Counted from the first letter of the stretch, positions 1,961-32,791 are shown. The stretch: 33,668 bases of DNA from an uncultured Candidatus Saccharibacteria bacterium (GCA_964367315.1 CAYIWV010000001.1:1-33668), one strand, 5' to 3'. The notes: generated by a model from the letters alone, not told the origin. Made by a program: numbers and translations.

Positions 1961-3009
1961 TATCCGACATGCTCCTCGTATTCATACCCGCGACGCTCGC
2001 GTTCCTCATCGGCGTGGGGCTCACGCCCTTCCTTACCCATGTGCTTTACACCAGGCGCATGTGGAAGCAGAAGGCCGGCAAGATCGCGCTCGACGGTTCT
2101 ACGGCTACCGAGTTTAACCGCCTGCATGAGGCGCGCGAGGTCGGTACTCCTCGTTTTGGCGGCATCGTGGTATGGGCGAGCGTCCTGCTTGCCGCCGACC
2201 TCCTGAGTATTTTGGCCCGCATCTATCCCGACGCCTTCCTCGACCTGGCGTTCATCAGCCGCTCGCAGACCTGGATGCCGCTCGCGGCGTTCGCGGCCGG
2301 GGCATTCGTCGGCTTTTTGGACGACCTCTTCGAGGTAAGCCGGGGCGAGGGCCTGCGCCTGCGGGTGCGGCTCGTTATCGTCGCGATTGTCGCGGCATTG
2401 TGCGGATGGTGGTTTTACGACAAGCTCGACGTCTCCTCGGTGACGACGCTCGTCACAGCCGCCCCGGTGGAGCTTGGGGTGCTGTTCATACCATTCTTTA
2501 TCCTGGTAACACTCTTTATATATGCGAGCGGCGTCATCGACGGGCTCGACGGCCTTGCCGGCGGGGTGTTTGCCTCAATCTTCGCCGCCTATGCGGGTAT
2601 CGCGTTCTTCCAAAATCAACTCGACATTGCGGCCTTGTGCGCCGCCATTGCCGGCGGGCTCCTCGCTTTCTTGTGGTTCAATATCCCGCCCGCGCGCTTC
2701 TACCTCTCCGAGACAGGCACAATGGCGCTGACGCTGGCGCTGGTCGTCATCGCCTTCTTGACCGACACGCTCGGCGAAGGCAAGGGCGTGGCAGTACTGC
2801 CGATTATCGCCCTGCCGCTCGTGGTCACTGTCGCGTCGAATATCCTCCAAATATTCTGGAAGCGCGTGTTTGGCCGCAAGCTCTTCCGCATCGCACCCCT
2901 GCACCACCACTTTGAGGCTATCGGCTGGCCAGCGCAAAAGGTCGTTATGCGCTACTGGGTCGTCGCGGTCGTCGCGGCAATTGTGGGGATGTCTATCGCC
3001 CTCTTATGA
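1957..3009 (+). CDS. mraY: phospho-N-acetylmuramoyl-pentapeptide transferase
   Basis: Polytopic membrane protein with the GTPRFGG, DDLFEV and APLHHHFE motifs. dcw gene context. Confidence 0.95.
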   Translation: MISDMLLVFIPATLAFLIGVGLTPFLTHVLYTRRMWKQKAGKIALDGSTATEFNRLHEAREVGTPRFGGIVVWASVLLAADLLSILARIYPDAFLDLAFISRSQTWMPLAAFAAGAFVGFLDDLFEVSRGEGLRLRVRLVIVAIVAALCGWWFYDKLDVSSVTTLVTAAPVELGVLFIPFFILVTLFIYASGVIDGLDGLAGGVFASIFAAYAGIAFFQNQLDIAALCAAIAGGLLAFLWFNIPPARFYLSETGTMALTLALVVIAFLTDTLGEGKGVAVLPIIALPLVVTVASNILQIFWKRVFGRKLFRIAPLHHHFEAIGWPAQKVVMRYWVVAVVAAIVGMSIALL

Positions 3010-4103
3010 GCAAGCGAGCGCCCTTGGATGCTCCGTTTTTGCTGACGGTGTGCTTGCTGTTGGCTTTTGGCCTGCTTATCTTCACCTCGGCGGCGCTCGG
3101 ACTTTTGGCGCGCGATGGCGCGACCTTTACCTCCGTGGCAACCTCCCAGCTCCTGCTTGGCTTTTTGCTCGGTGGGGTGGCGATGGTGGTGTTAAGCCGC
3201 ATCGACTACCGCACCTGGCGGCCCTATACGCCGTACTTTTTCGTGTTTTCGATCGGCCTGACGTTGCTGACATTTACGCCGCTTGGGCTCACGCTCAAAG
3301 GAGCGGCGCGGTGGGTCGCCTTGGGGCCCATAACCTTCCAGCCCGAGGAGGTCTTAAAGTTCGCCGCGGTCATGCTGCTTGCGGCGGTGTATGCCTCGCG
3401 TATGCGTGAGGTGCCGACTATGCGCGGCGGCCTCCTGCCGCTTATCCTCATCGGCGGGTCCGGCACGGTGCTGCTCTTGCTGCAGCCCAATACCGACGGC
3501 GCGATGATGCTTGCGGCCGCTTGCGCCGCGGTTCTCTTTGCCGCAGGCGGCAAACTGCGGCACCTTGCGCTCTTGGCGCTCCTTGGCGTGGTTGCGGTGG
3601 TTGCGGCCGCGTTCGCATACCCGCACGTGATGTCGCGGTTCGCCACTTTTTTCGATCAGGCGGCCGACCCGCAAGGTGCGGGCTGGCAGATCCATCAGTC
3701 GCTTATCGCGGTCGGGTCGGGGCAGGTATTCGGCAAGGGCTTCGGTCAGAGTATTGAAAAATTTTCCTACCTCCCGGAGCCGATAGGGGACTCGATTTTC
3801 GCGGTTGCGGCCGAGGAGTTCGGCTTTGTAGGGAGCGGCATCCTGGTTGCGCTCTATGCGACTTTTGCCCTCCTCGGCCTGCGCGTCGCGGCGCGCGCCC
3901 CGGACCCTTTCGGCGGGCTTGTGGTGGTTGGGCTCGTGACCCTCATTTGCGTGCAATCGTTCGTCAACATCGCCTCCGTCCTAGGGCTCATCCCGCTCTC
4001 GGGCCTGCCGCTTATCTTCGTCTCCCACGGCGGCACGGCGCTTGCTGTCTCCTTGGCCGAGGTCGGGGTTATACTGTCGGTATCCCGGAGGATGAAGTCC
4101 TAA
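3006..4103 (+). CDS. ftsW: SEDS-family peptidoglycan polymerase FtsW/RodA
   Basis: QPEEVLKF, YLPEPIGDSIFA and PLIFVSHGGTA motifs. Located between mraY and murG. Confidence 0.9.
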   Translation: MSKRAPLDAPFLLTVCLLLAFGLLIFTSAALGLLARDGATFTSVATSQLLLGFLLGGVAMVVLSRIDYRTWRPYTPYFFVFSIGLTLLTFTPLGLTLKGAARWVALGPITFQPEEVLKFAAVMLLAAVYASRMREVPTMRGGLLPLILIGGSGTVLLLLQPNTDGAMMLAAACAAVLFAAGGKLRHLALLALLGVVAVVAAAFAYPHVMSRFATFFDQAADPQGAGWQIHQSLIAVGSGQVFGKGFGQSIEKFSYLPEPIGDSIFAVAAEEFGFVGSGILVALYATFALLGLRVAARAPDPFGGLVVVGLVTLICVQSFVNIASVLGLIPLSGLPLIFVSHGGTALAVSLAEVGVILSVSRRMKS

Positions 4104-25323: not shown

Positions 25324-25395
25324 GGCCCTTTCGTCTAACGGTTAGGACAGTTCCCTCTCACGGAACAAATACGGGTTCGATTCCCGTAGGGGTCA
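25324..25395 (+). tRNA. tRNA-Glu (anticodon CUC)
   Basis: Manual cloverleaf: acceptor GGCCCTT/AGGGGTC, D-arm GTCT..GGAC, anticodon stem GTTCC/GGAAC with loop CT-CTC-AC, and T-arm ACGGG-TTCGATT-CCCGT. CCA is not encoded. Confidence 0.88.
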
Positions 25396-25402
25396 TGCAG
25401 GC

Positions 25403-25429
25403 AAAAGACCGGCTTACCGCCGGTTTTTT
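25403..25429 (+). terminator. intrinsic terminator after tRNA-Glu
   Basis: ACCGGC-ttacc-GCCGGT stem followed by TTTTT. Confidence 0.6.
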
Positions 25430-25555
25430 GCGTGCATAATTATCGACCGGGAATCGAACAAGGGAGGGGTCGGGAGGGAGGCTCAGCGTCCCTCCCGTGG
25501 AGGAAGCCTACGAAACCGAGAGGTTTCGTAAGAGCCGAAGGCTCAGGAGTGAGTG

Positions 25556-25570
25556 TTCCCGTAGGGGTCA
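25556..25570 (+). repeat. 15-bp direct repeat of the tRNA-Glu 3' end (TTCCCGTAGGGGTCA); att-like site
   Basis: Identical to 25381-25395. This copy is followed by CCA, unlike the gene itself. Confidence 0.7.
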
Positions 25571-25662
25571 CCAAGTCAGAGTTTTTGGCACTATTCTCAC
25601 CATAAGCCTTGGGTTATAATGGCGGCCCTCACAAAGAGTCGAGTGTTACAATTACTACCGAA

Positions 25663-26808
25663 ATGGAACAGTCAAATAAAGGGCTTATCCTAAACCCCGA
25701 GGTCTTAAAATGGGCGAGGGAGACCGCTGGGGAGTCTCTTGACTCCACCGCGAATAGGCTCAACACCACTAAAAATGTGGTGGAGGAGTGGGAGCAAAAA
25801 GGTATGCCCCTCTCCTTTGCACGCTTACACGCGTTGGCTGATTTTTATAAGCGCTCGGTCGCGGCGCTAATGTTGCCCGCCATCCCTTTGGAACCCTCAT
25901 TTCCTACAGATTTTAGGAGAGCGAGAGGACAATCAAAGACTTCAAAAAAGACTCGCTTGGCAATACGTCGAGCATGTCGTTTGCAAAATCTTGCGGCAAA
26001 TTTAGCACAGGAATTGGGCGGCGATATTACGCTCAAGCTCTTTCGTATTTCAAACATTAACAACCCTGCGGCGTCGGCACAAAAGCTGAGGGAAGTCCTT
26101 GGTATTACCATCGAAGACCAAAGTGGTTGGGAAAATGAACGAGCGGCCCTAAAGCAATGGATAAGCGCTTTAGAGAAGGCGGGTGTCAGCGTCTTCCAAA
26201 TGAGCATCCCTAAAGCAGAAGCGCGAGGCATCGCTTTGTCTGGCAATGGAGATAAAAAGTCTGCAATTGTACTTACCACTCAAGATTCAGTGAGGGGCCG
26301 CATATTTACTTTGTTCCACGAGGTGGGCCACTTGTTGTTGGGAGAGTCAGGCATTTGTAATCTAAAGAATCTCAATAGTCGCGTACGAAGTGAAAATGAA
26401 TATGAGATATTCTGTGATGAATTTGCGGGCAATTTTCTTCTTCCCGTTGGTACTCTTAACAGTGATGGACTCTTTACCACTTTTTTGGACGGACTCGGCC
26501 TCTCAATTCTTCGCAGAATTTCTCTCAAATATAAAGTCAGCCAAGAGATGGTGCTCGTACGCTTGTACCGCACTCAGAAGCTCTCTTATACCGTTTTTAG
26601 AGAGCTCTTGAAATTGGCTCAAGAAAAGAGAAAGCCTACGTCTGACGGCTTTCAGTTACCTCACCAAAAGTGTATAGGGGAAGTTGGTCGTCCTCTCATC
26701 TCTCAAACCTTTGACGCCATGAAAAAGGGCAAATTAAATGTTGCTGATGCGGTCTCATACCTTGGATTGAGCAGAAAACATTTCAAACGCTTACATGGGC
26801 TTATTTGA
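25663..26808 (+). CDS. XRE-type HTH plus ImmA/IrrE-family metallopeptidase fusion protein
   Basis: N-terminal HTH-like region (LKWARETAGESLDSTANRLNTTKNVVEEWE), HEXXH motif FHEVGHLLL, and a conserved E..CDEFAGNFLLP segment. ATG chosen at 25663. Confidence 0.85.
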   Translation: MEQSNKGLILNPEVLKWARETAGESLDSTANRLNTTKNVVEEWEQKGMPLSFARLHALADFYKRSVAALMLPAIPLEPSFPTDFRRARGQSKTSKKTRLAIRRACRLQNLAANLAQELGGDITLKLFRISNINNPAASAQKLREVLGITIEDQSGWENERAALKQWISALEKAGVSVFQMSIPKAEARGIALSGNGDKKSAIVLTTQDSVRGRIFTLFHEVGHLLLGESGICNLKNLNSRVRSENEYEIFCDEFAGNFLLPVGTLNSDGLFTTFLDGLGLSILRRISLKYKVSQEMVLVRLYRTQKLSYTVFRELLKLAQEKRKPTSDGFQLPHQKCIGEVGRPLISQTFDAMKKGKLNVADAVSYLGLSRKHFKRLHGLI

Positions 26809-26813
26809 AAAGT

Positions 26814-27302
26814 ATGAGGACACTCTTTACTCCCGAACGGATTTACTGCTTCGACTCCTCAGTATTAATGCAAATAGCGGAAGACTATCCGCCTGACATT
26901 TTTCCTACGTTATGGTCACAGCTGGAGGAACTCATAAAGAAGGGGGTGGTGCATTCGGTACACGAGGTGTTGGCGGAGATAGAGGCAGGTAACGATGACC
27001 TTTGTGACTGGGCAAAAAGAAACAGCGGACTATTTATATCGCTCGAACTTCATCACCAACAACGCGCACAAGAAATTGTCGTCGCGCATCCCACGCTTGT
27101 GGATGCCAGTAGGCAAACACCCCAAGCAGACCCGTTTATAATCGCGCACAGCCTAATTGATGGTTGCGTGGTTGTCACCAAGGAGAACGCGGCGCAACCT
27201 AATCAAAAAAGAAAAAAGATACCTGATGTCTGCGCTAAGGAAGGTGCGGAATACATCAACGACCTCAATACGCTCTTTCGTGAGTTTCACTGGTCTTTTT
27301 AA
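26814..27302 (+). CDS. DUF4411-family protein (predicted PIN-like nuclease)
   Basis: YCFDSSVLMQI...YPPDIFPTLWSQLEELI...ADPFIIAHS...VVTKE...KIPDVC are hallmark DUF4411 motifs. An alternative TTG start at 26805 overlaps the upstream stop. Confidence 0.85.
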   Translation: MRTLFTPERIYCFDSSVLMQIAEDYPPDIFPTLWSQLEELIKKGVVHSVHEVLAEIEAGNDDLCDWAKRNSGLFISLELHHQQRAQEIVVAHPTLVDASRQTPQADPFIIAHSLIDGCVVVTKENAAQPNQKRKKIPDVCAKEGAEYINDLNTLFREFHWSF

Positions 27303-28334: not shown

Positions 28335-29648
28335 TTACCGCCGTTTCCACTCCGCGTCTTGGCGGACCAGGAGTTCGCGGGCGCGCTCGGGCTCAAGCAT
28401 CAGCTCCTCCACCACGCGCTCCATGCGCATCGATTGGGAGCCTTTGACCAAGACCACGTCGCCCTCCCCTACCCAATTTTTAAGGTCGGCCCCCGCCTTG
28501 CGCGCGTCCTCGTACTGAAATATTTTTTCATCCCTCAGGCGGTTGTCGAGCGCGCCCTGCGCGATATCGCGGGCGCGAAAGCCGATGGTCACCAGCAAGT
28601 CGCATACCTTGGCCGCCTGCGCACCCGCCTTGCGGTGCGCGTCGACCGAGTGGCGCCCAAGCTCGAGCATATCGCCAAGTACTACGATGGCGCGCTTGGG
28701 GTTTATCAGCGTGAGCGTCTCGAGCGCGGCCTCTACCGCCGCGGGCGAGGAGTTGTACGTGTCGTCGATGATGAGTGAGCCTTTAAGCCCGGGCAAAAGA
28801 CGCATGCGCCCCGGCGGCGGCTCATAGCCCGCGAGCCCCTCGAGTATCGTTTGCAACGGGAGCCCCAGCGTATGCCCCACCGCCGCGGCGGCGACACCCG
28901 ATAAAAACGAGTGCGTGCCGACCGTGCCGGCTATTTCGACGGGGGCGGATTCTCCCTCGACAGTGATGGTCGCGCGCATGCCAACCGGCATCCCTTTTTT
29001 GCGGCCCACAGGTTGCGCTCGCACGAGTGCAAAGTCGCTCGCGCGCACGTCGGCGTCGGCATTAAAGCCAAACAACAGCACCCGCGCGTCGGGGAACGGC
29101 TCGTGCCGCTCGAGCGCGCGGGTATGCGGGTCGTCGGCATACAAAAGCAGCGTCCCACCCGGTCGGATACACTCGATAAGCGCGGCTTTTTCCTCCACCA
29201 CGGCCTCGGGCGAGTCAAAAAACTCGACATGTACCGGCGTCTCGGGCAGCCGAGTAATGACCGCAATATCTACCTTAAGCCAGTTTACGAGCGAACGGAT
29301 GTCGCCTGGGCGGTCGGCCCCGATTTCGAGCACCAACCACTCGGGGTAGGTACCGCGCATAACGATGAGCAGCAGCCCATCAAAAATATTCTGCATCCAC
29401 CGCAGGGGGTTGCCCCACGCATTTTGGAGCCCGAGGATAGTGAGCGGCAAGCCTATTTCGGAGTTGTAGCTTTTCTCCGACTTGCGCACGTGGGTTGTCT
29501 TGGCAAGCACCGAGAAAATCGCGTCTTTGGTCGACGTCTTGCCGACACTGCCGGTGATGGCGACGATCTTTGGCTTGTATGTGCGCAGCACCACCCGCGC
29601 CTCTAAGGTCAGTATGGTGATTACTATTTTTTTTAAAAATTCTTTCAT
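28335..29648 (-). CDS. murF: UDP-N-acetylmuramoyl-tripeptide--D-alanyl-D-alanine ligase
   Basis: GSVGKTSTKD P-loop and Mur ligase middle and C-terminal motifs. dcw context. Confidence 0.93.
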   Translation of the reverse strand: MKEFLKKIVITILTLEARVVLRTYKPKIVAITGSVGKTSTKDAIFSVLAKTTHVRKSEKSYNSEIGLPLTILGLQNAWGNPLRWMQNIFDGLLLIVMRGTYPEWLVLEIGADRPGDIRSLVNWLKVDIAVITRLPETPVHVEFFDSPEAVVEEKAALIECIRPGGTLLLYADDPHTRALERHEPFPDARVLLFGFNADADVRASDFALVRAQPVGRKKGMPVGMRATITVEGESAPVEIAGTVGTHSFLSGVAAAAVGHTLGLPLQTILEGLAGYEPPPGRMRLLPGLKGSLIIDDTYNSSPAAVEAALETLTLINPKRAIVVLGDMLELGRHSVDAHRKAGAQAAKVCDLLVTIGFRARDIAQGALDNRLRDEKIFQYEDARKAGADLKNWVGEGDVVLVKGSQSMRMERVVEELMLEPERARELLVRQDAEWKRR

Positions 29649-29905
29649 CCCGTTAGAGATAGGAAACGTTTTAATCGGTTGTTTAAATATCGCTTGCCCA
29701 TTCCTGATTTTAAATATTTCTCTCGAGCCCGAGCATCATCTTCATTTTTGCACGCCTCGTAGTATATCAGTTCGTAAGGGCCGCGTGATTTTGTCCATGT
29801 ACTTTTACCGGTTTGATGCTCGTTGAAACGTTTCCGAAGATCTTTGGTTGAACCGGTGTACCAATAATTATTTTTTTGACTTTTTATAACGTAGACATAC
29901 CACAT
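29645..29905 (-). CDS. small GIY-YIG (URI-domain, YhbQ/COG2827-like) nuclease family protein
   Basis: WYVYVIKS...YWYTGSTKDLRKRFNEH...E..AR.REKYLK is the GIY-YIG core. ATG at 29905. Its TGA stop overlaps the murF ATG (ATGA). The longer track ORF overlaps ftsI and was trimmed. Confidence 0.85.
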   Translation of the reverse strand: MWYVYVIKSQKNNYWYTGSTKDLRKRFNEHQTGKSTWTKSRGPYELIYYEACKNEDDARAREKYLKSGMGKRYLNNRLKRFLSLTG

Positions 29906-29925
29906 ACTTATATCTCTAACGGGAT
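29647..29925 (-). mobile_element. candidate miniature GIY-YIG cassette bounded by 15-bp perfect inverted repeats (or 13-bp TIRs plus a 2-bp AT duplication)
   Basis: ATCCCGTTAGAGATA at 29647-29661 is the exact reverse complement of TATCTCTAACGGGAT at 29911-29925. The interior is markedly AT-rich relative to the flanking ftsI and murF. Confidence 0.4.
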
Positions 29926-31470
29926 TTATCGATCCGGCGGGATGTTGTAATAGTTGAGGAGGAATTCGGTAAACGTATGGAAGGGTCCGGCCCATGTCTG
30001 CGAGGCGAACGGGGCGCCCACCGGCTCCTGCGCGTACAAAAACACGACGAACTTCGGATCGAAGCTGGGGAAGTACCCGAAAAAGCTGTGCAAATACCTG
30101 TCCGTATAGTAGCCGCCGCCGTTTGGGTTCGCAACCTGGGCGGTACCCGTCTTTGCCGCCACCGAGTGCCGCTCTATTTTTATCTTACCGTCGGCGAGCG
30201 CCTTGTCGACCACCTCGGTCAGCATGCGGCTTATCGCGGTCGAGGTCTCCCCTTTTAATATCCGTACCGGCTCGCCCCAGCCGAGCTCCCGCTCGAACCC
30301 CCGCTCGTCGCGCACCGCGCGCACCAGGTGCGGGGTTACCAGGTACCCGCCGTTGCCGATGCTTGCGAGCGCGCGTGTCATCTGCACCGGCGTTATCGCG
30401 ATACCCTGGCCGAACGATGCCGTGTTGTGCTCCACTCGCCGCGAGCTCTTGAGGTTGTCAGTGAGCCCGCGCAGCTCTCCTGGCAAGTCCACCCCCGTCT
30501 CCTCGCCGAATTTATAGCGATCCAAAAAGTACTCGCGCATGGTGTCGGGCCCCATTTTGGTCGCGACAAAGGACGCGCCCAAGTTGAGCGACTCGCTTAA
30601 GACCTGCTGCATCGTAGTGCCGGGCCCCCGCGCCCTAAGGTCATGGTTGCATATTTTCTTCTCGTCCATCTCGATGCACCCCGTGTCGTTGTAGGTCGAG
30701 CTCTCGGTTATCGCGCCCGAGTCGAGCCCCGCGGCGAGCGTCAACGGTTTCATGATAGAGCCCATCTCATAGACGCTCTCGGCCATCGGGTTGCCGAAAA
30801 TCAGCGGGTCTTCCTGCATATTAAACTCGTTGAGGTCAAACGTGGGGTATACCGCCATGGCGAGTATCTCACCGGTCATCGGGTCCATGACGACCCCGCC
30901 GGCAAGGCGCGGCGACCAGTGCGCACCGTACTCGGCCAAGGTGCGCTCGAGCTCCGCCTGCACGGTCGGCTCTATTGTGGTAATAATATCGCCGTAGGAG
31001 GGTGTGCCGGAGAGCGCCGATTGTAACCCGCCGAAGAGCTCGACGAAAAAGTTTTTATACAAATTCTCCCCCGGGCGCGCGAGCGTGTGCTCGTAGTAGC
31101 GCTCGAGGCCGTACCGGCCTTTTTGCTCGTCATCGTTGTTATACGCGACAAAGCCGAGCGTCTGCGCCGCCAGAGAGCGGCCCGGGTAGTAGCGCTGATG
31201 CCCTTTTGAGTCCTCCCCGAGCGGCCGCAGGGTCGCCGCGACGACCCGCTCGCCCGCTTTGTCGGTAAAGTAGATGCCCCCGCGGTTAAGCAAGGGGTCC
31301 TTGGTAACGACAAGCTGCGCGTCGGCTTTGCGCGCGTACTCTTCGCCGTGGACGATCTGCACCACATAGAGCCTCCCCACGATGACGAGCGCGCCGAGCA
31401 CCAAAATGCCGGTTACGACCCGCACGCGGTTCGTAAAGCGCGCGGCGCTCGGCTTCGGGGGGGTCGGCAT
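29926..31470 (-). CDS. ftsI: class B penicillin-binding protein (FtsI/PBP2-type transpeptidase)
   Basis: SIMKP (SxxK), SESLN (SxN) and KTGTA motifs plus an N-terminal TM anchor. dcw context. Confidence 0.92.
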   Translation of the reverse strand: MPTPPKPSAARFTNRVRVVTGILVLGALVIVGRLYVVQIVHGEEYARKADAQLVVTKDPLLNRGGIYFTDKAGERVVAATLRPLGEDSKGHQRYYPGRSLAAQTLGFVAYNNDDEQKGRYGLERYYEHTLARPGENLYKNFFVELFGGLQSALSGTPSYGDIITTIEPTVQAELERTLAEYGAHWSPRLAGGVVMDPMTGEILAMAVYPTFDLNEFNMQEDPLIFGNPMAESVYEMGSIMKPLTLAAGLDSGAITESSTYNDTGCIEMDEKKICNHDLRARGPGTTMQQVLSESLNLGASFVATKMGPDTMREYFLDRYKFGEETGVDLPGELRGLTDNLKSSRRVEHNTASFGQGIAITPVQMTRALASIGNGGYLVTPHLVRAVRDERGFERELGWGEPVRILKGETSTAISRMLTEVVDKALADGKIKIERHSVAAKTGTAQVANPNGGGYYTDRYLHSFFGYFPSFDPKFVVFLYAQEPVGAPFASQTWAGPFHTFTEFLLNYYNIPPDR

Positions 31471-31819: not shown

Positions 31820-32791
31820 TTAGTCGCGCGCCTTTTCGATCGCGCGCAGCTTGGCGCTGCGGGATGCCGGGTTTTTTATAATTTCCTCGCGGGTCGGCGC
31901 AAGCGGTTTTTTTCGGCCCAGGGCCGATCCGCCATGGGCGGAGAATTCTCGGAACAATCTTTTGACGATCCGGTCCTCAATGGAGTGGAAGGTGATGACC
32001 ACGAGGCGCCCGCCGGGCGCCAGGATGCTCCACGCGCCGCGGATACCCTGCTCGAGCGCGCCGAGCTCGTCGTTGACCGCGATGCGCAACGCCTGGAAGG
32101 TCTTGGTCGCCGGGTGGATCCGCCGGCCGGCGGAGCCGCGACGGTACGCCGCCGGCACCGAGTCTTTCACAAGCTCGACAAGCTCGAAGGTGGTGGCAAA
32201 CGGCTGGAGCGCGCGGCGATTGACGATAGCGGCCGCGATGCGCCGCGCAAAGCGCTCTTCGCCATAGCCATAGAGCGCGTCGGCAATGGCCTTCTCGCTC
32301 CAGGTGTTAAGCACCTCGGCGGCGGTAAAGCCCGAGCGCGGTTGCCCGCCATAGCTCATATTGAGCGGCTCGTCGTGCATAAAAGAGAACCCGCGGCCGC
32401 TTGCAAGCTGCCCGCGGTTCCACCCCAGGTCGAACAGGGCTTTATTTACCTGCCTGCCGGCAGGCAGGTTTTTTTGAACAAGTTCTTTAATGTCGGCAAA
32501 GTTGCCGACAATGTCCGCTTTCGACGCCGGGTCGGCGTCTATGGTGATGAGTTTTACTTTTTGCCCCTGCCTGCCGGCAGGCAGGGCTTTTTTGATGGCG
32601 GCGCTGTGTCCGCCTGCCCCAAACGTCGCATCGACGACTACGTCGCCTTTTGCAAGGCTCAGCGCCTCGAGCACCTCTGCCGTCATGACCGGCTTGTGTT
32701 CCGATACCTGCTCGCGAACCGTATCGCCCTCCTCTCGACGGGAGCGATGCGAACCACGAACAGGTATCGAAGCAAAAGTCATCGTGTGCAT
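31820..32791 (-). CDS. rsmH: 16S rRNA (cytosine1402-N4)-methyltransferase
   Basis: HKPVM...DATFGAGGHS...FDLGWN...HPATKTFQALRIAVNDEL...ITFHSIEDRIVK...SAKLR. Confidence 0.93.
   Translation of the reverse strand: MHTMTFASIPVRGSHRSRREEGDTVREQVSEHKPVMTAEVLEALSLAKGDVVVDATFGAGGHSAAIKKALPAGRQGQKVKLITIDADPASKADIVGNFADIKELVQKNLPAGRQVNKALFDLGWNRGQLASGRGFSFMHDEPLNMSYGGQPRSGFTAAEVLNTWSEKAIADALYGYGEERFARRIAAAIVNRRALQPFATTFELVELVKDSVPAAYRRGSAGRRIHPATKTFQALRIAVNDELGALEQGIRGAWSILAPGGRLVVITFHSIEDRIVKRLFREFSAHGGSALGRKKPLAPTREEIIKNPASRSAKLRAIEKARD
32449..32468. repeat. 20-bp perfect palindrome CCTGCCTGCCGGCAGGCAGG inside the rsmH coding sequence (copy 1)
   Basis: Read directly. Encodes LPAGRQ in frame. A T-run follows on the plus strand. 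Confidence 0.85.
32566..32585. repeat. 20-bp perfect palindrome CCTGCCTGCCGGCAGGCAGG inside the rsmH coding sequence (copy 2)
   Basis: Identical to copy 1 and 117 bp away from it (39 codons). Encodes LPAGRQ in frame. A T-run follows on the plus strand. Confidence 0.85.

What the first reader, a model, noticed from the sequence alone, without database searches (positions are those of the whole stretch)
29645..29928. GIY-YIG gene cassette with perfect 15-bp terminal inverted repeats inserted precisely between the ftsI stop and the murF start; candidate uncharacterised mobile element
The sequence ATCCCGTTAGAGATA (29647-29661) is the exact reverse complement of TATCTCTAACGGGAT (29911-29925). The 279 bp they delimit are strikingly AT-rich compared with the flanking genes and contain only an 86-aa GIY-YIG (URI-domain) ORF. 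The right repeat ends one base before the ftsI stop codon (TAA, 29928-29926 on the minus strand). The left repeat supplies the A and T of the murF ATG. The outermost AT is self-complementary, so the structure can equally be read as 13-bp TIRs (CCCGTTAGAGATA) flanked by a 2-bp AT target duplication. Removing the element and one AT restores ...CGA TAA ATG AAA..., a natural ftsI-murF junction. The GIY-YIG ORF runs through the left repeat and borrows its TGA stop from the murF ATGA, so it is translationally embedded in an essential operon. GIY-YIG enzymes are known as homing endonucleases and repair nucleases. I do not know of a TIR-bounded, TSD-generating element whose only gene is a small GIY-YIG protein. 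If other copies exist, this would be a new type of minimal selfish element. It could also explain why such small GIY-YIG genes are so abundant in reduced genomes.
Basis: partly seen in the sequence, partly recalled or inferred. Interest (0 to 1): 0.72.

Follow-up and report, generated by a model that had tools for sequence, protein, structure and literature searches.

The report
Tiny mobile GIY-YIG nuclease gene cassette
A 277-bp stretch wedged between two essential cell-wall genes is one copy of a widespread family of miniature jumping genes, which I did not find described in the papers I could search; the element carries only a tiny DNA-cutting enzyme and lands on gene start codons without breaking the gene.

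Summary
A perfect 15-bp inverted repeat (29647-29661 / 29911-29925) brackets an intact 86-aa GIY-YIG gene between the ftsI stop and the murF start, at 39% GC in a 61% GC operon.

It is not a one-off. Of 81 loci holding homologues, from many CPR phyla, Omnitrophota, Desulfobacterota, Planctomycetota and a DPANN archaeon, 77 carry the same arms (CCCGTTAGAG...CTCTAACGGG).
- Arm positions covary, and synonymous sites inside the coding arm are frozen.
- One metagenome-assembled genome (MAG) holds three near-identical copies with unrelated flanks.
- 42 gene-less miniature copies share the termini.
- Flanks carry 3-4-bp direct repeats, mostly TGAA.
- 44 of 70 full copies sit on a host ATGAA start codon, rebuilding the ATG and overlapping it with the nuclease stop (ATGA).
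- About 65 MurF relatives lack the gene at this junction, and six carry miniature copies there.

The ancestral junction was probably CG-ATGA-AAGAA.

The closest known system is the Ssn single-strand nuclease with its hairpin repeats (Chenal 2025), whose authors only guessed at mobility. I read this as an Ssn-like element whose gene lies inside its own hairpin. That the nuclease itself moves the element is inferred, not shown.

The parts
29648..29924 (-). The element proper (277 bp) under the best-fitting end model. In gene sense it reads T-CCCGTTAGAG...CTCTAACGGG-A.
   Evidence: Identity among three paralogous copies in one MAG stops at these ends plus the flanking ATGAA. The register analysis of flanks in 116 elements supports the same ends.
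29911..29925 (-). 5' arm in gene sense (ATCCCGTTAGAGATA), lying 5 nt upstream of the GIY-YIG ATG.
   Evidence: The family-wide stem covers positions -2..+11, with covariation at -1, +10 and +11.
29647..29661 (-). 3' arm in gene sense (TATCTCTAACGGGAT). It encodes the C-terminal residues LSLTG and part of the stop codon.
   Evidence: Third-codon-position entropy is 0.00 bits at codons 83-85, against 1.7-1.95 bits at other four-fold sites.
29645..29905 (-). GIY-YIG nuclease gene: 86 aa plus a TGA stop that overlaps the murF ATG.
   Evidence: Pfam PF01541 at E 5e-19. Y5, Y16, R26, H30 and E62 are invariant and median dN/dS is 0.135. The AlphaFold model has pLDDT 92 and a GIY-YIG fold.
29644..29647 (-). 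Downstream copy of the 4-nt direct repeat (TGAA in gene sense). Together with the element's terminal A it forms the murF ATGAA.
   Evidence: TGAA is found on both sides in 49 elements.
29925..29928 (-). Upstream copy of the direct repeat. Here it reads TAAA, one base away from TGAA, and contains the ftsI stop TAA (29926-29928).
   Evidence: In 17 of 70 full-length family members the stop of an upstream ORF lies in this repeat. Relative L134 has ...AGA-TGA-ATCCCG at the same junction.
28335..29648 (-). Host gene murF. Its start codon is rebuilt by the end of the element, and its translation is probably coupled to the nuclease ORF through the ATGA overlap.
   Evidence: In 44 of 70 family members the right-flank ATG starts an ORF of at least 80 aa.
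29926..31470 (-). Host gene ftsI (transpeptidase), immediately upstream of the element.

Best explanation
The cassette is one copy of a large family of minimal mobile elements of about 275-285 bp. Each element is a single-domain GIY-YIG nuclease gene enclosed by two arms (CCCGTTAGAG.. / ..CTCTAACGGG) that pair with each other into a 14-15-bp stem.

**How I think it moves (inferred).** When the DNA is single-stranded, during replication, repair or DNA uptake, the arms form a panhandle that brings both ends together. The encoded nuclease recognises this stem plus the adjacent flank and nicks there, as its relative SsnA does with the hairpin repeats flanking its own gene. Host functions then complete excision or copying and insertion at T-N-N-A sites, above all (A)TGAA. 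This leaves a 3-4-bp duplication.

**What the sequence shows directly.** On an ATGAA start codon, the element's terminal A plus the duplicated TGAA rebuild the host ATG. The nuclease stop overlaps that ATG (ATGA). The upstream copy can supply the nuclease with the host's own start signals, giving a 95-aa form. The host gene therefore stays expressed through translational coupling and the insertion is nearly neutral.

**This locus.** The element landed on an ftsI/murF ATGA overlap. It arrived recently from an AT-rich donor and is still intact.

**Confidence by step.**
- Member of a mobile family: about 0.9.
- Its own nuclease is the mobilising enzyme: about 0.6.
- The mechanism uses a single-strand hairpin: about 0.4.
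For: **Shown here**
- The same arms occur in 77 of 81 loci that were selected only by protein patterns lying outside the arms.
- Pairing is kept through covariation at positions my search did not select. Position -1 is 97% Watson-Crick against a permuted maximum of 74%. Position +10 is 97% against 89%. Position +11 is 97% against 61%, with three pair types.
- Synonymous sites in the coding arm are frozen, while the protein is under purifying selection with invariant catalytic residues.
- Three copies in MAG CAZATK01 differ by 0-1 mismatches over 275 nt and have unrelated flanks.
- 42 gene-less minis of 44-195 nt share only the termini. They occur at about 7.6 per 100 kb in the loci fetched for the nuclease gene, against 2.3 per 100 kb in the MurF-selected loci, where most sit at the murF start itself.
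- The direct-repeat register is x1-5 = y1-5. In elements not at an ATG, the exact 4-mer matches in 40% against 12% when permuted (maximum 24%). When the host second codon is not AAN, the left copy follows it (ATGAGT/ATGAGT, ATGGAT/ATGGAT).
- About 89% of ATG-type insertions sit on ATGAA, against about 25% of ordinary long ORFs.
- The ftsI-murF junction is empty in about 65 relatives and holds minis in six (L102, L121, L123, L128, L134, L157).
- A second filled/empty pair is L026 against L175, whose host proteins are 92% identical.
- The terminal stem is part of the minimum-free-energy fold with both DNA and RNA parameters, z = -2.7.

**Precedent**
- SsnA is a 94-aa single-domain GIY-YIG protein. 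It binds hairpin repeats that flank its own gene and cuts only single-stranded DNA next to them, and it also works when the hairpin is split between two oligos (PMC11893778).
- A rhizobial homologue 38% identical to this protein is flanked by hairpins of the form TCATCCCTGTG...CACAGGGATGA. These share TCATCCC / GGGATGA with the arms studied here.
Against: - GIY-YIG enzymes are hydrolytic nucleases. None is known to carry out strand transfer, so rejoining has to be assigned to host functions, and no transposition has been shown.
- I found no filled/empty allele pair with nearly identical flanks. The duplication is therefore inferred statistically and from relatives at 65-92% protein identity.
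- In the window the left repeat is imperfect (TAAA against TGAA).
- No second copy or mini lies in these 33.7 kb, and I could not scan the rest of the genome.
- 26 of 70 full copies are not at a recognisable start codon.
- Covariation of the arms would also be produced by selection on an mRNA stem. G.T and A.C mismatches are equally frequent, so neither strand nor RNA is indicated.
- Whether the protein belongs to the Ssn clade (cd10448) could not be tested. The nearest solved structure is a UPF0213 protein of unknown function.
Confidence: 0.6

Rival explanations
1. The cassette and its miniature relatives are mobile but not autonomous. Some other enzyme moves anything bounded by these termini, such as a host recombination or replication-slippage pathway or an unidentified transposase. 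On this reading the GIY-YIG gene is cargo, or a selfish nuclease that helps retention rather than movement.
For: No GIY-YIG transposase is known (established knowledge). Minis without the gene are frequent. A 3-4-bp duplication at TNNA resembles what DDE transposases of the IS5/Harbinger kind produce (my knowledge, not tested here).
Against: The arms co-occur with this one gene in 77 of 81 loci from more than ten phyla and one archaeon, and no other ORF lies inside any element. The 3' arm lies within the last codons of the gene, with frozen synonymous sites, which argues for long co-evolution. No larger element with these termini turned up in about 860 kb. The Ssn precedent links this type of protein directly to the repeats that flank it.
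Confidence: 0.2
2. This is a domesticated, host-serving Ssn-type system. The nuclease and its recognition repeats act on single-stranded DNA, for example to restrict transforming DNA as in Neisseria. This copy would then be a fixed resident gene rather than an active transposon.
For: That is the demonstrated role of SsnA and its NTS repeats in N. meningitidis. The protein is under strong purifying selection. The insertion is identical in two assemblies from the same groundwater site, the Hainich H43 contig L169 and the window. The left repeat has already mutated.
Against: The gene is absent from this junction in all of about 65 relatives. Its GC content is 22 points below the operon's. The closest homologues sit in unrelated contexts. 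Near-identical multi-copy insertions exist in another genome. A host function would not explain placement on start codons with flanking repeats.
Confidence: 0.12
3. The inverted repeat exists only as a long-range mRNA stem that controls translation or stability of the nuclease and murF. It has no role at the DNA level.
For: The arms covary. The stem is in the RNA minimum-free-energy fold. It brackets the 5' leader and the stop/start overlap, where it could gate translational coupling. In gene-less minis it would loop out the insert and bring the upstream ribosome-binding site close to the host ATG.
Against: An mRNA stem does not explain identical copies with unrelated flanks, flanking direct repeats, tandem arrays or spread across phyla. 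There is no excess of G.U-compatible mismatches on the sense strand. No Rfam family matches. An RNA role may well exist alongside mobility.
Confidence: 0.05
4. This is a classical free-standing GIY-YIG homing endonuclease gene that spreads by cutting an empty allele and being copied in through homologous repair.
For: There are weak profile matches to the group I intron endonuclease family (TIGR01453, E 3e-5, below its cut-off) and to a phage homing endonuclease family (phrog_314, E 1.5e-5).
Against: The protein has only 86 aa and no DNA-binding domain. Insertions sit in front of dozens of unrelated genes with no shared flanking homology. Gene-less minis share the termini.
Confidence: 0.03

Closest known systems
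Ssn single-strand-specific GIY-YIG nucleases with their hairpin repeats (NTS/SRM); Chenal et al., Nat Commun 2025, PMC11893778
   Same: Both are single-domain GIY-YIG proteins of about 90 aa with the same catalytic Tyr/Tyr/Glu. In both, inverted-repeat DNA flanks the gene on both sides and extra copies of the repeat are scattered and clustered in the genome. The motifs are similar at the foot of the stem: (G/C/T)TCAT(T)CCC...GGG(A)ATGA in Neisseria and Sinorhizobium, against TTCATCCCG...CGGGATGAA here. The authors themselves note that the gene-plus-repeats layout looks like an insertion sequence.
   Different: In Ssn systems each flank holds a complete 20-50-nt hairpin. Here each flank holds one half, so the gene lies in the loop of a single stem. 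The published SRM search pattern does not match. This family also shows features not reported for Ssn: flanking 3-4-bp direct repeats, precise placement on start codons with an ATGA overlap, minis of 100-190 nt, near-identical multi-copy insertions, and hosts in CPR, DPANN and Omnitrophota. Sequence identity to an SRM-flanked homologue is only 38%, and membership of cd10448 was not tested.
IS200/IS605 insertion sequences and REP/RAYT systems (single-strand transposition guided by hairpins, HUH enzymes)
   Same: Both are very small elements whose ends are recognised as DNA hairpins. Both choose a 4-5-nt target. Both have abundant gene-less hairpin derivatives that cluster in the genome. All of these points are from my own knowledge of those families.
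   Different: Those elements use a covalent HUH tyrosine transposase, not a hydrolytic GIY-YIG nuclease. IS200/IS605 have subterminal hairpins at each end, no terminal inverted repeats and no target duplication. Here the two ends pair with each other and direct repeats are present.
Free-standing and intron-encoded GIY-YIG homing endonucleases (I-TevI, T4 Seg proteins)
   Same: They share the catalytic fold. Both are selfish genes lodged between or within essential genes.
   Different: Homing enzymes carry a DNA-binding domain and are more than 200 aa long. They return to one cognate site by homologous repair. This 86-aa protein has no such domain, and the element sits in front of many unrelated genes.
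Bacterial MITEs that tolerate or exploit gene contexts, such as Correia elements of Neisseria and Rickettsia palindromic elements
   Same: Both are short elements with terminal inverted repeats and short target duplications. Both are present in many copies and are often co-transcribed with neighbouring genes (my own knowledge).
   Different: For those elements the mobilising enzyme is unknown or is a DDE transposase acting in trans. Here a candidate autonomous partner carrying the same termini is identified.

Membership tests
Ssn nuclease / SRM hairpin-repeat system (cd10448) | Single-domain GIY-YIG protein of about 90-100 aa with the catalytic Tyr, Tyr and Glu | tested here: met
   86 aa. Pfam PF01541 at E 5e-19. 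Y5, Y16, R26, H30 and E62 are invariant in 56 homologues. The model has one GIY-YIG domain plus a C-terminal helix, pLDDT 92.
Ssn nuclease / SRM hairpin-repeat system (cd10448) | Placement in the CDD cd10448 clade of the GIY-YIG superfamily | not testable with these tools
   No CDD models and no SsnA sequence were available. Indirect evidence: 38% identity over 65 aa to a rhizobial homologue flanked by NTS-like hairpins, and best solved-structure matches to UPF0213 proteins.
Ssn nuclease / SRM hairpin-repeat system (cd10448) | Gene flanked on both sides by complete hairpin repeats that fit the SRM consensus HGTCWY..YYVSBRH..WNVSBRG..RNCYNB | tested here: not met
   The published pattern has no match in the window and only 2 matches in 433 kb of homologue loci. 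Each flank carries one half of a single inverted repeat, separated by 249 nt.
Ssn nuclease / SRM hairpin-repeat system (cd10448) | Many further copies of the repeat dispersed or clustered in the genome | tested here: inconclusive
   None in the 33.7-kb window, and the rest of this genome could not be scanned. In related genomes there are 42 gene-less copies in about 860 kb, often clustered.
Ssn nuclease / SRM hairpin-repeat system (cd10448) | Sequence-specific cleavage of single-stranded DNA only, next to the hairpin | not testable with these tools
   This needs a biochemical assay.
GIY-YIG homing endonucleases (I-TevI, Seg) | Nuclease domain joined to a separate DNA-binding domain | tested here: not met
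   86 aa in a single domain. TIGR01453 scores 24 bits against a cut-off of 56.
GIY-YIG homing endonucleases (I-TevI, Seg) | Insertion at one cognate site, spread through flanking homology | tested here: not met
   Insertions lie in front of many unrelated genes, including ruvX, ruvC, pyrG, fmt, murF and FBP aldolase/phosphatase. Three copies in one MAG have unrelated flanks.
Insertion sequences / transposons with terminal inverted repeats | Terminal inverted repeats | tested here: met
   15 of 15 bp in the window. The stem is 14 bp across the family.
Insertion sequences / transposons with terminal inverted repeats | Short direct duplication of the target | tested here: inconclusive
   Flanking 3-4-nt repeats are statistically supported and vary in sequence (TGAA, TTTA, TAAA, CTGG, CCCG, TAGA). 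The window copy has one mismatch, and no near-identical empty allele was found to prove duplication.
Insertion sequences / transposons with terminal inverted repeats | Several near-identical copies at unrelated sites in one genome | tested here: met
   Met for the family: L021, L026 and L033 of MAG CAZATK01 differ by 0-1 mismatches over 275 nt. Not seen within this window.
Insertion sequences / transposons with terminal inverted repeats | Encodes a transposase of a known class (DDE, DEDD, HUH, serine or tyrosine) | tested here: not met
   The only ORF is a GIY-YIG nuclease.
IS200/IS605 and REP/RAYT | HUH (Y1) transposase, subterminal hairpins, no terminal inverted repeats and no duplication | tested here: not met
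   There is no HUH protein. The ends pair with each other and direct repeats are present.
UPF0213 (YhbQ/YazA-type small GIY-YIG proteins) | Sequence and fold similarity to BH0048 / YazA | tested here: inconclusive
   Profile against 1zg2 gives E 2.6e-10. Foldseek gives E 2.7e-4 with TM 0.54. Identity to B. subtilis yazA is 43% over 64 aa. This is similar in degree to the match with the Ssn-type rhizobial protein, so the subfamily cannot be assigned.

The most novel reading that the evidence does not exclude
These are autonomous transposable elements of a new class, and at about 277 bp the smallest known. Their only encoded function is an 86-95-aa hydrolytic GIY-YIG nuclease that recognises the panhandle formed by the element's own ends in single-stranded DNA. 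They target the first bases of genes ((A)TGAA) and make the insertion harmless by rebuilding the start codon and riding on translational coupling. This would explain why small GIY-YIG genes are so abundant in CPR and other streamlined genomes.
Probability: 0.4. Interest if true: 0.92.

Novelty: new variant of a known kind. Interest (0 to 1): 0.8.

Why it matters
- If the nuclease moves its own gene, this adds a new enzymatic class to the short list of transposition mechanisms, in an element less than half the size of the smallest known insertion sequences.
- It would account for one of the most abundant unexplained small gene families in CPR/Patescibacteria, along with their scattered hairpin repeats.
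- It shows how a selfish element can colonise genomes with almost no intergenic space. It inserts on the start codon or on an ATGA gene overlap and restores both reading frames, even inside an essential cell-wall operon.
- It supports the speculation by the discoverers of Ssn nucleases that the gene-plus-repeat layout is a mobile element.
- It supplies thousands of natural nuclease/arm pairs with covarying specificity. These could be useful for tools that cut single-stranded DNA.

Tried and rejected
1. **Other copies in the window.** None were found.
2. **Known RNA families.** There is no match at gathering threshold or at E <= 1.
3. **Carriage by phages or plasmids.** Only distant GIY-YIG hits at 33-43% identity appear in GenBank phages and PLSDB plasmids. 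No relative is in IMG/VR, and two exact 16-mer hits there lack the second arm and are chance.
4. **The published SRM pattern.** It has no match in the window.
5. **A bona fide SsnA sequence to test clade membership.** The paper's supplements are not held. A search seeded with the rhizobial homologue returned only Rhizobiales among its top hits.
6. **An empty allele in the same population.** The only other contig with the identical MurF (L169) is 100% identical and carries the element.
7. **Choosing between an RNA and a DNA stem from wobble asymmetry.** G.T and A.C mismatches are about equally rare, so the test is uninformative.
8. **A leader ORF in minis coupled to the host ATG.** The lengths of the minis give no consistent reading frame (sizes), so I rejected this as a general rule.
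9. **A larger element with the same termini that might encode a transposase.** Only tandem arrays of small elements were found.
10. **Possible excision footprints in relatives (L117, L155).** They are too ambiguous to use.
11. **Literature.** Seven full-text searches found no description of a GIY-YIG element with terminal inverted repeats, or of derived MITEs, in bacteria. Two papers touch on it. Tsurumaki et al. 2024 note GIY-YIG genes in non-intron insertions of CPR rRNA genes. A Patescibacteria horizontal-transfer study lists GIY-YIG genes among the transferred genes.

Full report
**1.
- The + strand reads ATCCCGTTAGAGATA at 29647-29661 and its exact reverse complement at 29911-29925, with 249 nt between.
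- On the minus strand, ftsI (29926..31470, transpeptidase domain) ends with TAA at 29928-29926. One base further on, the 5' arm begins.
- Five bases after that arm, an ATG (29905) opens an 86-aa ORF with a GIY-YIG domain (Pfam E 5e-19). Its last five codons (LSLTG) and its stop lie in the 3' arm.
- The TGA stop (29647-29645) overlaps the ATG of murF (29648-29646).
- The cassette is 38.7% GC, against 61% for both neighbours.
- A perfect 15-mer inverted repeat within 600 nt is expected about 0.02 times in this window (my arithmetic). The whole-window scan finds this one and one other perfect pair.
- There is no second copy of the arms or of the gene in the window.

**2. The gene is widespread.**
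- A protein search gave 4272 hits. The best 120 are 85-111 aa long and 71-88% identical.
- A scan of one genome per GTDB species found 353 relatives. The best 80 come from many CPR phyla, from Omnitrophota, Thermodesulfobacteriota, Phycisphaerales, Bdellovibrionales, Bacillota and Thermodesulfovibrionia, and from a Woesearchaeota archaeon, all at 69-81% identity.
- Those loci were picked with peptide patterns that do not include the C-terminal LSLTG, so the arms were not selected for.
- Even so, 77 of 81 loci carry CCCGTTAGAG a few bases upstream of the ATG and CTCTAACGGG at the end of the ORF.

**3. The arms are under selection both for sequence and for pairing.**
- In the 74 distinct elements selected by protein alone, three positions outside the 10-nt core I searched with are paired in 97% of elements. 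They take several pair types:

| Position | Watson-Crick | Permuted mean | Permuted max | Pair types |
|---|---|---|---|---|
| -1 | 97% | 57% | 74% | T-A 52, C-G 19 |
| +10 | 97% | 81% | 89% | mostly A-T |
| +11 | 97% | 45% | 61% | T-A 41, C-G 24, A-T 7 |

- Rare variants change several positions together: TTACATCCAG/CTGGATGTAA in L055, GAGCTAG/CTAGCTC in L019, and CCCGTACGAAAT/ATTTCGTACGGG in L128. Some of these alter the C-terminal residues as well.
- Third-codon positions of codons 83-85 have zero entropy. Four-fold sites of invariant residues elsewhere in the gene have 1.7-1.95 bits.
- The protein is under purifying selection (median dN/dS 0.135), and Y5, Y16, R26, H30 and E62 are invariant.
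- The stem closes the minimum-free-energy fold with DNA or RNA parameters, z = -2.7.
- G.T and A.C mismatches are equally rare, so the data do not say which strand or which nucleic acid forms the stem.

**4. The family is mobile.**
- MAG CAZATK01 has three copies on three contigs (L021, L026, L033). They differ at 0-1 of 275 positions.
- Identity begins at ATGAAT on the left and ends after ATGAA on the right. Beyond those points the flanks are unrelated, and the downstream genes are ruvC, FBP aldolase/phosphatase and another gene.
- Tandem arrays occur in L023/L024, L032, L039 and L078.
- The closest homologues of the window protein (88% and 81% identical) sit in other contexts, one of them between a glycosyltransferase gene and a methyltransferase gene.
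- In about 860 kb of fetched DNA there are 42 gene-less elements of 44-195 nt with the same termini. They share only 15-27 nt at each end with full copies.
- 19 of 40 minis abut the start codon of an ORF of at least 80 aa. Most of those have the same subterminal YCT motif on the side facing the host ATG.

**5. Ends and target.**
- I compared the 8 nt outside each arm in 116 distinct elements. The left and right flanks match in register at five positions and not at the sixth.
- The best reading is an element (T/C)CCCG...CGGG(A/G) flanked by a 4-nt repeat. TGAA appears 49 times, TTTA 9 times and TAAA 4 times. CTGG, CTTA, TAGA, CCCG, TGAG and TGGA appear once each, and TGAA once more among the elements not at an ATG. 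Some elements have 3-nt repeats (TGA, TGG, TAA).
- Among elements not at an ATG, the 4-mers are identical in 40%, against 12% when partners are permuted (maximum 24%).
- Where the host second codon is unusual, the left copy follows it: ATGAGT/ATGAGT in L043 and ATGGAT/ATGGAT in L067.
- 44 of 70 full copies have the right-flank ATG as the start of an ORF of at least 80 aa. In 17 of 70, the stop of an upstream ORF lies in the left repeat.
- About 89% of these host starts read ATGAA, against about 25% of ordinary long ORFs in the same loci.
- Elements with C...G termini use TTTA or TAAA and are not at start codons. Target choice therefore changes with element subtype, which points to a mechanistic preference and not just to selection.
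- In many copies the upstream ATGAAT is in frame with the nuclease ORF and gives a 95-aa form starting MNPVRD. In others it is out of frame or stopped.

**6. This locus.**
- Of the MurF relatives fetched from metagenomes, about 65 have ftsI directly upstream, and none has a GIY-YIG gene between the two.
- Their spacers are mostly -4 to +10 nt. L139 has the ATGA overlap and L082, L083 and L120 have 1-nt overlaps.
- Six relatives carry gene-less minis at exactly this junction: L102, L121, L123, L128, L134 and L157. In L134 the ftsI stop is the TGA of ...AGA-TGA-ATCCCG.
- By analogy, the ancestral junction here was most likely ...GAT CG-ATGA-AAGAA. Insertion duplicated TGAA, and the left copy later changed from TGA to TAA, which is silent for ftsI. 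This removed the upstream ATG, so the nuclease is now made from the internal ATG 20 nt after the ftsI stop.
- L128 and L131 have 93% identical MurF proteins. L128 has a mini, and L131 has an unrelated palindrome instead.
- A second filled/empty comparison: the FBP aldolase/phosphatase gene of L026 carries the element on its ATGAAG. In L175 the 92%-identical gene starts ...ATATC-ATGAAAAAC with nothing inserted.
- The only other contig with the identical MurF (L169) comes from the Hainich H43 groundwater site and is 100% identical through the element.

**7. What the protein is.**
- The AlphaFold model (pLDDT 92) is a three-stranded sheet with helices, as in GIY-YIG domains, plus a long basic C-terminal helix.
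- The nearest solved structures are the UPF0213 protein BH0048, then Slx1, a structure-selective nuclease, then the I-TevI catalytic domain.
- There is no DNA-binding domain.

**8. Comparison with what is known.**
- Chenal et al. (PMC11893778) showed that SsnA of N. meningitidis binds a hairpin repeat (NTS, CGTCATTCCCGCGMAVGCGGGAATCYRG). SsnA is 94 aa, has a single GIY-YIG domain and belongs to CDD family cd10448.
- The same hairpin also flanks its own gene. SsnA cuts only single-stranded DNA a few bases upstream of the hairpin.
- Recognition needs both the sequence and the structure. Cleavage still works when the hairpin is split between two oligos.
- They found hairpin repeats on both sides of 42% of homologues. 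They remarked that the layout resembles an insertion sequence, without evidence of movement.
- I found a rhizobial homologue (L166) that is 38% identical to the window protein and is flanked by such hairpins (GATTCCTGTG...CACAGGAAT upstream, TCATCCCTGTG-CTCG-TCACAGGGATGA downstream). These share TCATCCC / GGGATGA with the arms here.
- The present family therefore works like an Ssn system whose hairpin has been opened to hold the gene.
- Membership of cd10448 could not be tested. The published repeat pattern does not match.
- It is not a homing endonuclease, because it has no binding domain and has many unrelated sites. It is not a member of any known insertion-sequence family, because it has no known class of transposase.
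- Seven full-text searches found no description of such an element. One paper notes GIY-YIG genes in non-intron insertions of CPR rRNA genes.

**9. Mechanism: what is shown and what is inferred.**
- Shown: the anatomy of the element, the selection on the arms, multi-copy mobility, the gene-less derivatives, the flank repeats, the start-codon placement, and the way reading frames are restored.
- Inferred from the Ssn precedent: the encoded nuclease recognises the stem formed by the two arms in single-stranded DNA and nicks at its foot.
- Inferred without precedent: this leads to excision or copying and to insertion with a 3-4-nt stagger, using host ligation and repair.
- Open: the polarity of cleavage, whether movement is cut-and-paste or copy-and-paste, and whether start-codon placement is due to targeting or to survival of harmless insertions. 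Both probably contribute.

**10. Verdict.** The finding is real. The element family is, as far as I can tell, undescribed, with Ssn as its nearest relative.

Noticed in passing
window 32449-32468 and 32566-32585: Two exact copies of a perfect 20-nt palindrome, CCTGCCTGCCGGCAGGCAGG, lie 117 nt apart. Both are inside the rsmH coding region (31820..32791, minus strand) and each translates to LPAGRQ. None is expected by chance. They look like in-frame palindromic inserts in a housekeeping gene.
   Followed up: partly
L103, L105, L115, L116, L127, L130, L131, L138 (ftsI-murF spacers, about 2440-2500 in each locus): The ftsI-murF spacer of many MurF relatives holds other, unrelated perfect palindromes of 30-50 nt. 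One example is CCACAAGTCGGACATGTGG-CTAA-CCACATGTCCGACTTGTGG in L115, with a related one in L131. The junction seems to be a general landing site for hairpin elements, or else these are regulatory stems.
   Followed up: no
L031 1320-1664: A second, different small GIY-YIG gene (114 aa, with a ..KSWKSRKAIERL.. tail like the rhizobial Ssn-type protein) lies directly downstream of the main element. It is followed by its own hairpin, CCCGTCCTCGACCGAGTCGAGACGAGGTCGGG. L035, L011, L019 and L072 also carry a distant second paralogue nearby.
   Followed up: partly
L034, L046, L070, L076 (Omnitrophota and relatives), about 2975-3800: In these loci the element has C...G termini and GTTTAC flanks. It lies in arrays with minis, and the nuclease ORF reads on past the 3' arm for 325-538 nt. 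Immediately after the arm there is what looks like a decayed 5' arm (GTTTACCCTTTTAG and similar). I did not examine what the extension encodes.
   Followed up: no
window 25324-27302: A lower-GC stretch (0.44-0.49) starts at tRNA-Glu (25324-25395). It holds a 399-aa ORF (25609-26808, with an HExxH-type motif FHEVGHLLL) and a 165-aa ORF (26805-27302) that overlaps it by 4 nt. This may be a small island or a toxin-antitoxin-like pair.
   Followed up: no
L009, L013, L017, L041, L043, L049: One subfamily of minis (CCCGTTAGAAGCCGCGATCGC...GATCGCGATCTGCTTCTAACGGG, 45-119 nt) recurs in Daviesbacteria, Sungbacteria, Liptonbacteria and other Parcubacteria. The gene-less forms therefore also cross phylum boundaries.
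   Followed up: partly
L005, L017, L069 around 2900-3400: Here the nuclease gene is itself the target. Minis are inserted on its start codon (L005, L069) or in its 3' end, where they replace the C-terminus (L017). These nested insertions explain three of the four loci where the usual 5' arm was missing.
   Followed up: partly
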